DNA of 64,000 nt, taken from positions 288,001-352,000 of the forward strand of contig CAWETI010000003.1 in NCBI GenBank assembly GCA_963812015.1, read 5' to 3'. The stretch's first letter is position 1; each line of letters opens with the position of its first letter. The DNA comes from an uncultured delta proteobacterium (lineage in GTDB: Bacteria; Desulfobacterota; Desulfobaccia; Desulfobaccales; 0-14-0-80-60-11). The notes under the pieces are model-generated. The model was not told where the DNA came from. It did no database searches and was given only the letters and a program-made list of their open reading frames with translations. Of the stretch, positions 38,590 to 38,785 are shown in pieces. Made by a program: the position numbers and the translations under genes.

Positions 38590-38785
38590 CGGTACATAGT
38601 TTGGTCATTAAAGAACCAGGCCATCAGGAGCAGTACTGCTCCTGATGGCGGCGTGGCAGGCCGTCCTAACCCTTGGTCCTTCAAGACCGCGGTGAGAGCG
38701 TGGCCGCCACGTCGCCCTGGCATTAACCCGAACAGTCGCCCGGGCTTTGAAGCCCGTATCTTGCAAGGACGGGAGGCCAAGGCTT
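38590..38785 (+). ncRNA. Predicted IS110 bridge RNA (ends approximate)
   Basis: 5' hairpin 38620-38649; target loop guides CCTAACCCT (38665-73) and GAGAG (38694-98); donor loop guides ACAGTCGC (38732-39) and TGCAAG (38762-67). Confidence 0.85.

What the first reader, a model, noticed from the sequence alone, without database searches (positions are those of the whole stretch)
38590..38785. Bridge RNA of an IS110 recombinase with all four guide segments readable
Seen: the ~215-nt non-coding left end has a perfect 30-nt palindrome (38620-38649) followed by two stems with internal loops. Loop 1 holds CCTAACCCT (38665-73; 8/9 match to the left target plus core, CCAAACCCT) and GAGAG (38694-98; reverse complement of core plus right target, CTCTC). 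Loop 2 holds ACAGTCGC (38732-39; identical to the element's right end up to the first core base) and TGCAAG (38762-67; pairs with CTTGTA of core plus left end, one G-T wobble), either side of a cgggctt-tg-aagcccg hairpin. Established: IS110/IS621 bridge RNAs guide recombination with this same target-loop/donor-loop layout and a CT core. Inference: an intact, programmable RNA-guided recombinase orthologue with its own target and donor specificity. The mechanism is known; this orthologue may not be.
Basis: partly seen in the sequence, partly recalled or inferred. Interest (0 to 1): 0.92.

Follow-up and report, generated by a model that had tools for sequence, protein, structure and literature searches.

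The report
Bridge RNA of an IS110 element
This is a small jumping gene whose non-coding left end encodes a guide RNA that tells its own recombinase where to insert; the mechanism is already known, and this is one more natural example that looks recently active.

Summary
Window 38573-39759 is a 1187-bp IS110-group insertion sequence. It has a 216-nt left end, a 317-aa DEDD/serine recombinase (38789-39742) and a 17-nt right end. Eight 100%-identical copies lie in the genome, each bounded by a CT core.

The left end folds into a 5' hairpin, a target-binding loop and a donor-binding loop. Across 52 orthologues the stems covary and the guide segments stay unpaired.

The guides covary with what they should read:
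- left and right target guides with the flanks;
- left and right donor guides with the element's ends;

The recombinase keeps all five IS621 catalytic residues. A TTGACA-17 nt-TATGTT promoter exists only across the joined ends.

The guide fits other insertion sites better than this one: CCTAACC is perfect at 4 of 9 left junctions.

Verdict: a genuine bridge RNA and a new member of a known kind. Elements with the same donor junction string and the same target type are already in the 2024 published data set. Expression, activity and programmability are untested. Interest is modest.

The parts
38564..38572 (+). Left target (7 nt, CCAAACC) plus CT core at the left junction of this copy
   Evidence: It matches the guide at 38665-38673 at 8 of 9 positions. 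An orthologous site without the element in a same-genus genome is continuous across this point (L102).
38573..39759 (+). The insertion sequence, 1187 bp counted with the right-hand CT core
   Evidence: Eight copies at 100% identity, all 1187 bp, with unrelated outer flanks. It is absent from the same mutase locus in 5 of 5 relatives' loci examined.
38575..38580 (+). -10-like hexamer TATGTT of the junction promoter. GTT at 38578-38580 is also the left half of the 3-nt subterminal inverted repeat.
   Evidence: Read. TAnnnT sits at this place in 28 of 36 distinct orthologue left-end starts. The repeat is complementary in 17 of 33 distinct end pairs, against 6.5 expected.
38620..38649 (+). 5' stem-loop (perfect 30-nt palindrome)
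   Evidence: A comparably strong hairpin directly 5' of the target loop is present in only 14 of 51 distinct orthologue left ends at z <= -2, so it is optional in this subfamily.
38650..38713 (+). Target-binding loop module: basal stem 38650-38663 with 38701-38713, and inner hairpin 38675-38688
   Evidence: Consensus fold and pair counts. All 13 pairs of these three helices show compensatory changes.
38665..38673 (+). Left target guide CCUAACC plus core-binding CU
   Evidence: It equals the top strand of the left flank: 7 of 7 at 4 of 9 left junctions and 6 of 7 at the other 5. Positions -6 to -1 covary with flanks across orthologues.
38692..38698 (+). Right target guide GUGAG plus core-binding AG
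   Evidence: Its reverse complement CT-CTCAC compares with right flanks CT-CTCCC in 6 of 8 copies, with a U-C mismatch at +4. Positions +1 to +5 covary across orthologues at 0.75-0.96 cognate against 0.24-0.41 non-cognate.
38699..38700 (+). Handshake guide of the target loop (CG), complementary to donor positions 6-7 (CG)
   Evidence: The first base is Watson-Crick to donor position 7 in 22 of 23 distinct rows, but neither side varies enough for a covariation test. The concept is from passages of PMC11208158.
38727..38773 (+). Donor-binding loop module: basal stem CCC 38727-38729 with GGG 38771-38773, and inner hairpin 38741-38756
   Evidence: Of the 7 pairs, 4 show compensatory changes, 2 never vary and 1 varies on one side only.
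38732..38740 (+). Left donor guide ACAGUCG plus core-binding CC
   Evidence: It is identical to the right end 39751-39758 over 8 nt. Across orthologues the 7-nt guide matches its own right end at 6.33 of 7 against 4.94 of 7 non-cognate, with 0 of 10000 permutations as high.
38761..38767 (+). Right donor guide (UUGCA) plus core-binding AG
   Evidence: UGCAAG pairs with CTTGTA of core plus left end with one G-T wobble. The base next to the core is Watson-Crick to the first left-end base in 37 of 40 distinct rows, against 23.6 expected.
38768..38769 (+). Handshake guide of the donor loop (GA). The G is complementary to target position 7 (C).
   Evidence: Across orthologues this base is Watson-Crick to target position 7 in 47 of 56 distinct rows, against 26.6 expected, with 0 of 10000 shuffles as high.
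38789..39742 (+). Recombinase gene, 317 aa
   Evidence: PF01548 at 2.8e-25 and PF02371 at 2.4e-18. PDB matches are ISCro4 at 1e-37 and IS621 at 8.8e-37. D11, E55, D97, D100 and S236-G237 align with IS621 D11, E60, D102, D105 and S241-G242.
39739..39744 (+). -35 hexamer TTGACA, overlapping the stop codon, 15 nt before the end of the core
   Evidence: Read. TTGAC or TTGAT lies exactly 15 nt from the core end in 34 of 46 distinct orthologue right ends. No complete sigma-70-like site exists in the linear context.
39748..39759 (+). Right terminus: AAC (right half of the 3-nt inverted repeat), left donor ACAGTCG and CT core
39760..39766 (+). Right target CTCCCCC, the 5' foot of a repeat-like hairpin
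39861..39876 (-). Unoccupied look-alike target (CCTGACC-CT-CTCCCCC) about 100 bp downstream, in opposite orientation
   Evidence: One of 5 empty CCTGACC-CT-CTCC sites in the genome (G000 C3:327876, minus strand).

Best explanation
Window 38573-39759 is an intact IS110-group insertion sequence.

Inferred by analogy with IS621: when the element excises as a circle, its right end (-35 TTGACA) and left end (-10 TATGTT) join across the CT core. This makes a promoter that transcribes about 190 nt of the left end into a bridge RNA.

Shown here by covariation: that RNA has two internal loops.
- The first loop carries a left target guide (CCUAACC+CU) and a right target guide (GUGAG+AG). They read both strands of a 14-bp site, ideally CCTAACC-CT-CTCAC, at the foot of a repeat-like hairpin.
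- The second loop carries a left donor guide (ACAGUCG+CC) and a right donor guide (UGCA+AG). They read the element's own joined ends.
- One further handshake base in each loop fits the other DNA after strand exchange.

Inferred from IS621 structures: a tetramer of the DEDD/serine recombinase holds both duplexes on the RNA, cuts next to the CT core and exchanges strands, inserting the element without a target duplication beyond CT.
For: Protein:
- IS110 domains are present.
- It is homologous to IS621 and ISCro4 structures at E about 1e-37, with all five catalytic residues aligned.

Anatomy:
- The left end is 216 nt and the right end 17 nt.
- A CT core sits at both junctions of 8 of 8 copies.

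Recent activity:
- Eight copies are 100% identical.
- The element is absent from 12 of 12 same-genus genomes sampled, except for distant relatives at 64-68% DNA identity in three of them.
- The mutase locus is empty in 5 of 5 relatives' loci examined.

RNA structure:
- RNAalifold on 52 sequences gives 20 pairs, 17 of them with compensatory changes, and leaves all guide segments unpaired.
- On the model-fitted alignment, 97.1% of cells are paired against 33-50% when the partners are slid.
- A covariance model of the two loops finds a full-length match in 78 of 81 sources.

Guides against DNA (element boundaries were set by guide-independent end motifs):
- Left target guide: 4.11 of 7 cognate against 2.28 of 7 non-cognate.
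- Right target guide: 4.43 of 6 against 1.60 of 6.
- Left donor guide: 6.33 of 7 against 4.94 of 7.
- Each of these had 0 of 10000 permutations as high.
- The right donor guide base is Watson-Crick in 37 of 40 rows, and the donor-loop handshake base in 47 of 56.
- The read window is -6 to -1 and +1 to +5 around the core.

Own genome:
- The left target is within one mismatch of the guide at 9 of 9 left junctions.
- No empty site with a perfect left target remains, while 5 one-mismatch sites are still empty.

Junction promoter and inverted repeat:
- The -35 hexamer is conserved at a fixed 15-nt distance in 34 of 46 right ends.
- The 3-nt inverted repeat is complementary in 17 of 33 end pairs.
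Against: - No RNA evidence: no listed sequencing run that holds the element is on record as RNA.
- No Rfam family matches the left end. All 11 matches at E <= 1 are far below their gathering scores.
- The right target guide has a systematic U-C mismatch at +4 in 6 of 8 insertions, and two insertions (L006, L007) have 3 of 5 right-target mismatches.
- This copy's own left target has a U-T mismatch.
- The core-binding CC of the left donor guide mismatches the T of the core.
- A test of the right donor guide by exact identity over 3 nt showed no signal (7068 of 10000 permutations as high). Only the single base next to the core carries signal.
- In the single-sequence minimum-energy fold, parts of the two target guides pair with each other.
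- The boundary rule misplaced some orthologue left ends, so the covariation figures are diluted.
- The alignment used was fitted to the structure and leans towards it.
Confidence: 0.93

Rival explanations
1. The bridge RNA is real by descent, but the element is no longer mobile here. It could be silent, kept only as fixed copies, or limited by its mismatched right target guide, so it would not be a usable active recombinase.
For: - No RNA holder is listed.
- No complete promoter exists in the linear context.
- There is a systematic +4 mismatch to its own targets.
- One copy is already reduced to a 66-nt left-end remnant.
Against: - Eight copies are 100% identical over 1187 bp.
- The open reading frame is intact and all catalytic residues are aligned.
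- All perfect left-target sites are occupied while mismatched ones remain empty.
- The element is absent from the same-genus genomes sampled.
- IS621-type elements are expected to lack a promoter until they circularise (passages of PMC11208160).
Confidence: 0.12
2. The left end is only a structured leader or recombinase-binding terminal region. Its resemblance to flanks and ends would come from chance, GC-rich repeat composition or captured target sequence, not from guiding.
For: - Targets and guides are both C-rich, so background identity is raised: non-cognate identity is 0.63-0.86 at position -1 and the core.
- GGAGG at 38772-38776, 12 nt before the start codon, lies partly in the basal stem of the donor loop. 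The fold could therefore also affect translation.
Against: - Cognate guide-to-flank identity far exceeds non-cognate identity at positions -6 to -2 and +1 to +5, with 0 of 10000 permutations as high.
- The signal sits exactly in the unpaired sides of two conserved internal loops.
- The polarity is the one reported for IS621: the 5' side equals the top strand and the 3' side is its complement.
Confidence: 0.03
3. It is an IS1111-type element with a guide RNA (seekRNA) encoded downstream of the recombinase gene.
For: It belongs to the same protein family.
Against: - The right end is only 17 nt after the stop codon and cannot hold an RNA.
- Both loops lie upstream of the gene.
- The inverted repeat is 3 nt, not long.
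Confidence: 0.01

Closest known systems
IS621 of Escherichia coli and its bridge RNA (Durrant et al. 2024, PMC11208160; Hiraizumi et al. 2024, PMC11208158; passages read)
   Same: - DEDD RuvC-like domain plus a Tnp domain with a catalytic serine, with all five catalytic residues aligned.
- Long left end, short right end and a CT core.
- A promoter split across the joined ends.
- A left-end RNA with a 5' stem-loop, a target loop and a donor loop.
- In each loop the 5' side equals the top strand and the 3' side is its complement, and the core is read by all four guides.
- Handshake bases.
- A short 3-nt subterminal inverted repeat.
- Insertion into repeat-like palindromic elements.
- A target read window of about 6-7 + 2 + 5 bp.
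   Different: - The proteins are only distantly alike: the match is E 8.8e-37 over 306 residues.
- The guide sequences and target differ (CCTAACC-CT-CTCAC ideal).
- The RNA is GC-rich, and both sides of the target loop are one nucleotide longer than in most relatives of its own subfamily.
- The host is an uncultured-type sediment or wetland bacterium rather than E. coli (the habitat is read from run labels only).
- There are no experimental data.
ISCro4 recombinase (PDB 9t56)
   Same: It is the best solved-structure match, at E 1e-37 over residues 2-309.
   Different: It is equally distant. Nothing beyond the sequence match was examined here.
IS110 elements in the published covariation set of Durrant et al. 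2024 (supplementary files 3 and 4)
   Same: - The donor junction string of this element occurs 148 times in file 4 and 64 times in file 3.
- Bridge RNAs printed there have the same conserved blocks.
- Targets of the type CCCTCACCCTAACCCTCTCCC are listed there.
   Different: Strings specific to this element (two from its target loop, one from the start of its left end) had 0 occurrences in the 6 held files. Two of those files were cut when stored, so absence from the full data set is not shown.
IS1111 group / seekRNA elements
   Same: The recombinase family and the principle of an RNA guide.
   Different: There the RNA lies in a long right end with long inverted repeats. Here the right end is 17 nt.

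Membership tests
IS110 family, IS110 group (bridge recombinase) | [quoted passage not shown] | tested here: met
   2.8e-25 (residues 8-148) and 2.4e-18 (residues 192-274), both above the curated cut-offs.
IS110 family, IS110 group (bridge recombinase) | Catalytic D, E, D, D and the serine-glycine of the Tnp loop (IS621 D11, E60, D102, D105, S241-G242) | tested here: met
   In the phmmer alignment to 8wt6_A, D11, E55, D97, D100 and S236-G237 fall on those residues. Chain numbering is offset by 2. Residue roles are from passages of PMC11208158.
IS110 family, IS110 group (bridge recombinase) | Long non-coding left end and short right end | tested here: met
   216 nt against 17 nt.
IS110 family, IS110 group (bridge recombinase) | Dinucleotide core at both junctions, with no longer target duplication | tested here: met
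   CT is at both junctions in 8 of 8 copies. An orthologous empty site in a relative is continuous across the junction (L102).
IS110 family, IS110 group (bridge recombinase) | Sigma-70-type promoter reconstituted across the joined right and left ends | tested here: met
   TTGACA (39739-39744), then 15 nt of right end plus 2 nt of left end, then TATGTT (38575-38580), read. The -35 spacing is conserved in 34 of 46 orthologue right ends. None is found in the linear context. Transcription was not tested.
IS110 family, IS110 group (bridge recombinase) | Left-end RNA with two internal loops flanked by conserved, covarying stems | tested here: met
   17 of 20 pairs have compensatory changes, and 97.1% of cells are paired against 33-50% when slid.
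IS110 family, IS110 group (bridge recombinase) | First loop: the 5' side equals the top strand of the left target plus core, and the 3' side complements core plus right target, covarying with insertion sites | tested here: met
IS110 family, IS110 group (bridge recombinase) | Second loop: the 5' side equals the right end plus core, and the 3' side complements core plus left end | tested here: met
   The right donor guide signal rests on one variable position and allows G-T wobble.
IS110 family, IS110 group (bridge recombinase) | Handshake guides that fit the non-cognate DNA | tested here: met
   The donor-loop base against target position 7 is Watson-Crick in 47 of 56 rows, against 26.6 expected. 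The target-loop base is complementary to donor position 7 in 22 of 23 rows, but neither side varies enough for a covariation test.
IS110 family, IS110 group (bridge recombinase) | Short subterminal inverted repeat flanking the 14-bp donor | tested here: met
   AAC (39748-39750) and GTT (38578-38580). The repeat is complementary in 17 of 33 orthologue end pairs, against 6.5 expected.
IS110 family, IS110 group (bridge recombinase) | The RNA is expressed, bound by the recombinase and required for recombination, and its specificity follows the guides | not testable with these tools
   No RNA run is listed. This needs bench work.
Rfam family for bridge RNA | A match above the gathering score | tested here: inconclusive
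   No match to the left end reaches a gathering score. I do not know whether Rfam 15 holds a bridge RNA model.
IS1111 group / seekRNA | Guide RNA encoded in a long right end, with long subterminal inverted repeats | tested here: not met
   The right end is 17 nt and the inverted repeat is 3 nt.

The most novel reading that the evidence does not exclude
The mismatches between this element's guides and its own natural targets may be tolerated or even selected, rather than accidental. They are a U-C mismatch at right-target position +4 in 6 of 8 insertions, and an A-C mismatch at left-target position -4 in the three CCTGACC insertions. If so, this orthologue would give a natural read-out of which positions a bridge recombinase really checks. 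It could also serve as an orthogonal, GC-rich bridge system, active outside its host, with a target specificity of its own.
Probability: 0.15. Interest if true: 0.45.

Novelty: new member of a known kind. Interest (0 to 1): 0.3.

Why it matters
It adds one well-documented natural bridge RNA and recombinase pair. All guide elements are mapped to the base, its natural target set is known (8 occupied and 5 empty sites in one genome), and there are signs of recent activity. This is useful as a candidate orthogonal tool and as a worked example for annotating such RNAs, which Rfam did not pick up here. It does not change what is known about the mechanism.

Tried and rejected
- Rfam scan of 38300-40000: 11 matches at E <= 1 (microRNA-like hits on the flanking repeat hairpin, and sX15 on the minus strand), all far below their gathering scores. 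Rejected as chance.
- RNA evidence: no RNA holder is listed among 21 runs. The four runs laid were DNA contigs. They showed no contig joining this locus's own flanks and no circular junction. The two 'joints' found carried other letters between their sides and look like paralogous repeat sites elsewhere.
- Exact-identity test of 3 nt of the right donor guide: no signal, 7068 of 10000 permutations as high. It was replaced by a single-position base-pair test.
- First left-boundary rule (last loose motif match): it misplaced many boundaries. It was replaced by the upstream-most strict motif, which still misplaces some rows with two candidates. Those rows were kept and dropped, where only loci with a single motif were used.
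- MAFFT alignment A1 was off by one column in the target loop for the window row, so guide extraction used the model-based alignment A2.
- Rows left out of A1: L032, L068 and L082 (wrong anchor) and loci with too little upstream DNA. The model later recovered L032/L033 and L068-L074.
- The 5' hairpin as a family feature: only 14 of 51 distinct left ends have one at z <= -2, so it is not a defining feature.
- Earlier notes of this scan: nothing to show near this place.
- Supplementary files of PMC11208160: three element-specific strings were not found. Two files were cut when stored, so absence is not proven.
- Plasmid collection: the best relative is 51.6% identical, annotated only as 'IS110 family transposase'. 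No named insertion sequence was found.

Full report
**What is there.** The finding sits in the left end of a 1187-bp element at window 38573-39759.
- The only long open frame inside it (38789-39742, 317 aa) carries the two Pfam domains of IS110-family recombinases: PF01548 at 2.8e-25 and PF02371 at 2.4e-18.
- Its best solved relatives are the ISCro4 (E 1e-37) and IS621 (E 8.8e-37) recombinases.
- In the alignment to IS621, residues D11, E55, D97, D100 and S236-G237 fall on IS621 D11, E60, D102, D105 and S241-G242. Passages of PMC11208158 describe these as the composite active site.
- The element lies between the large-subunit gene and the B12-binding-subunit gene of a methylmalonyl-CoA-mutase-type enzyme, in the same orientation.

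**Boundaries and copies.**
- The window's genome holds eight full copies at 100% identity and one 66-nt left-end remnant.
- In 8 of 8 copies the element is 1187 bp and is bounded by CT on both sides. The sequence beyond CT differs between copies.
- Twelve same-genus genomes were searched. None has the element; the best matches to its interior are 64-68% identical pieces of other family members in three of them.
- At the mutase locus, 5 of 5 relatives' loci examined have a spacer of 113-173 nt in place of the 1455 nt here.
- In one of them (L102) the repeat-like sequence runs uninterrupted across the insertion point.

**Check of the observation.** The left end is 216 nt. The single-sequence fold of 38575-38795 is -96.4 kcal/mol (z -4.25). 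It shows the 5' hairpin and two stem-loops with internal loops.

**Structure across relatives.**
- A scan of one genome per species returned 80 loci encoding relatives at 47-61% amino-acid identity.
- I aligned the two-loop region of 52 distinct left ends. RNAalifold predicts 20 pairs in five helices, 17 with compensatory changes. It leaves all four guide segments unpaired.
- A covariance model built from this alignment finds a full-length match upstream of the gene in 78 of 81 sources. The misses are L037 and L082 (partial matches) and L052 (cut by the contig end).
- On the resulting alignment, 97.1% of cells form standard pairs. This compares with 74.4% after shuffling and 33-50% when partners are slid by 1-3 columns. 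That alignment is fitted to the structure and leans towards it.

**Guides against DNA.** I set element boundaries in the orthologues by rules that do not use each locus's own guides:
- left boundary: the upstream-most NT(T/A)GTAT motif;
- right boundary: the best match to the family's end consensus ending in CT.

I then compared guides, taken at fixed structural anchors, with flanks and ends.

| Guide | Distinct pairs | Cognate identity | Non-cognate identity | Within 1 mismatch, cognate | Within 1 mismatch, non-cognate |
|---|---|---|---|---|---|
| Left target guide vs left flank (7 nt, core excluded) | 55 | 4.11 of 7 | 2.28 of 7 | 19 of 55 | 1.5% |
| Right target guide vs right flank (6 nt) | 49 | 4.43 of 6 | 1.60 of 6 | 29 of 49 | 1.5% |
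| Left donor guide vs right end | 9 | 6.33 of 7 | 4.94 of 7 | 8 of 9 | 30.6% |

- In each of these three tests, 0 of 10000 permutations reached the observed mean.
- The boundary rule visibly misplaces some left ends, which dilutes these figures.
- Position by position, specificity lies at -6 to -1 (0.51-0.84 cognate against 0.28-0.63 non-cognate) and at +1 to +5 (0.75-0.96 against 0.24-0.41). It vanishes beyond these.
- The right donor guide showed no signal in a 3-nt exact-identity test. However, the base next to its core-binding AG is Watson-Crick to the first left-end base in 37 of 40 distinct rows, against 23.6 expected. A pairs with T in CTTGTAT-type ends, and U pairs with A in CTAGTAT-type ends.
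- The base just 3' of that AG, the donor-loop handshake position of PMC11208158, is Watson-Crick to target position 7 in 47 of 56 rows, against 26.6 expected.
- The target-loop handshake base is complementary to donor position 7 in 22 of 23 rows, but neither side varies enough for a covariation test.
- The 3-nt subterminal inverted repeat is complementary in 17 of 33 end pairs, against 6.5 expected. In the window it is AAC and GTT.

**This element's own targets.**
- The guide CCUAACC is a perfect match at 4 of 9 left junctions (L002, L006, L007 and the remnant L009). It is one mismatch off at the other five, including this window's copy (CCAAACC).
- The right target guide predicts CTCAC. Six of 8 right flanks read CTCCC, a U-C mismatch at +4. 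Two (L006, L007) have three mismatches.
- Genome-wide, no empty site with the perfect left target followed by CT-CTCC remains. Five sites with CCTGACC-CT-CTCC are still empty, one of them about 100 bp downstream of this copy on the other strand.
- The targets are members of a short repeat-like family, a C-rich arm followed by a hairpin. This family is abundant in the genus.

**Promoter.**
- TTGACA (39739-39744) overlaps the stop codon and lies 15 nt before the end of the core. TATGTT (38575-38580) lies 2 nt inside the left end. Only the joined ends therefore give a TTGACA-17 nt-TATGTT promoter.
- The linear region has no sigma-70-like site.
- TTGAC or TTGAT sits at exactly this distance in 34 of 46 distinct orthologue right ends.
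- Passages of PMC11208160 describe the same split promoter for IS621. Transcription here is inferred.

**Comparison with what is known.**
- Every computable defining feature of the IS621-type system is met (see the membership table).
- The supplementary files of PMC11208160 contain this element's donor junction string 148 times (file 4), bridge RNAs with the same conserved blocks, and targets of the same repeat type.
- Three element-specific strings were not found in the six held files, two of which were cut when stored.
- The element is therefore a new member of a known and already well-sampled kind.
- I saw only passages and parts of supplements of PMC11208160, and passages of PMC11208158. 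Other papers in the listing were seen as titles and abstracts only.

**Open points.**
- Expression, recombinase binding, activity and reprogrammability are untested.
- No RNA run is listed.
- A contig about 96% identical to the element over 849 nt is present in one wetland metagenome (X5 record 30). None of the listed differences falls in a guide segment, but 22 further differences were not shown.

Noticed in passing
G000 C2:1263935-1264000 (locus L009): A solo 66-nt left-end remnant of the same element sits at a perfect CCTAACC-CT target. It breaks off at ...CCATCAGG and continues with sequence that, in the paralogous locus L007, lies about 60 nt beyond the right end after ...GGTCATCAGG. This looks like a deletion of the element through a short repeat (CATCAGG).
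   Followed up: partly
G000 C2:999030-999198: A ninth, weaker match of the bridge-RNA model (45.5 bits). It is the left end of a different IS110-type element, with its own TGTATC start, a target loop and the start of a donor loop. It is then truncated, and no obvious recombinase gene follows.
   Followed up: partly
L093:531-627, L072:99-196, L054-L056 and L058-L061:536-626: Several orthologues have a second, weaker model match just upstream of the full bridge RNA. By eye it is an extra target-loop-like module. In L093 the upstream module seems to fit the left flank better than the downstream one. These may be bridge RNAs with two target loops.
   Followed up: no
L054-L061, L072, L088, L091, L097 (left junctions): In this subgroup the left junction mostly reads ...ATT|AGTATGA (L054 has ...ACT), while the right junction ends ...GCT. 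The dinucleotide at the two junctions therefore differs (TT against CT). The left target guide also reads TT there.
   Followed up: no
window 38507-39961: The element splits the spacer between the two subunit genes of a B12-dependent mutase. The spacer is 1455 nt here against 113-173 nt in five relatives. The downstream subunit gene may depend on read-through or on a new promoter.
   Followed up: no
window 38518-38572 and 39849-39888; many hits in G001-G017: A family of C-rich repeat-like hairpins about 50 nt long is abundant across the genus and serves as the insertion target. The Rfam scan reports weak microRNA-like matches on it that are chance.
   Followed up: partly
window 38772-38776: GGAGG, 12 nt before the recombinase start codon, lies partly within the basal stem of the donor loop. 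Folding of the bridge RNA could therefore mask the ribosome-binding site on a long transcript.
   Followed up: no
run X5, record 30 (window 38555-39403): A wetland metagenome contig carries a variant of the element with 31 differences over 849 nt. Runs from 12 studies of sediment, wetland, peat, soil and groundwater hold parts of the stretch.
   Followed up: partly
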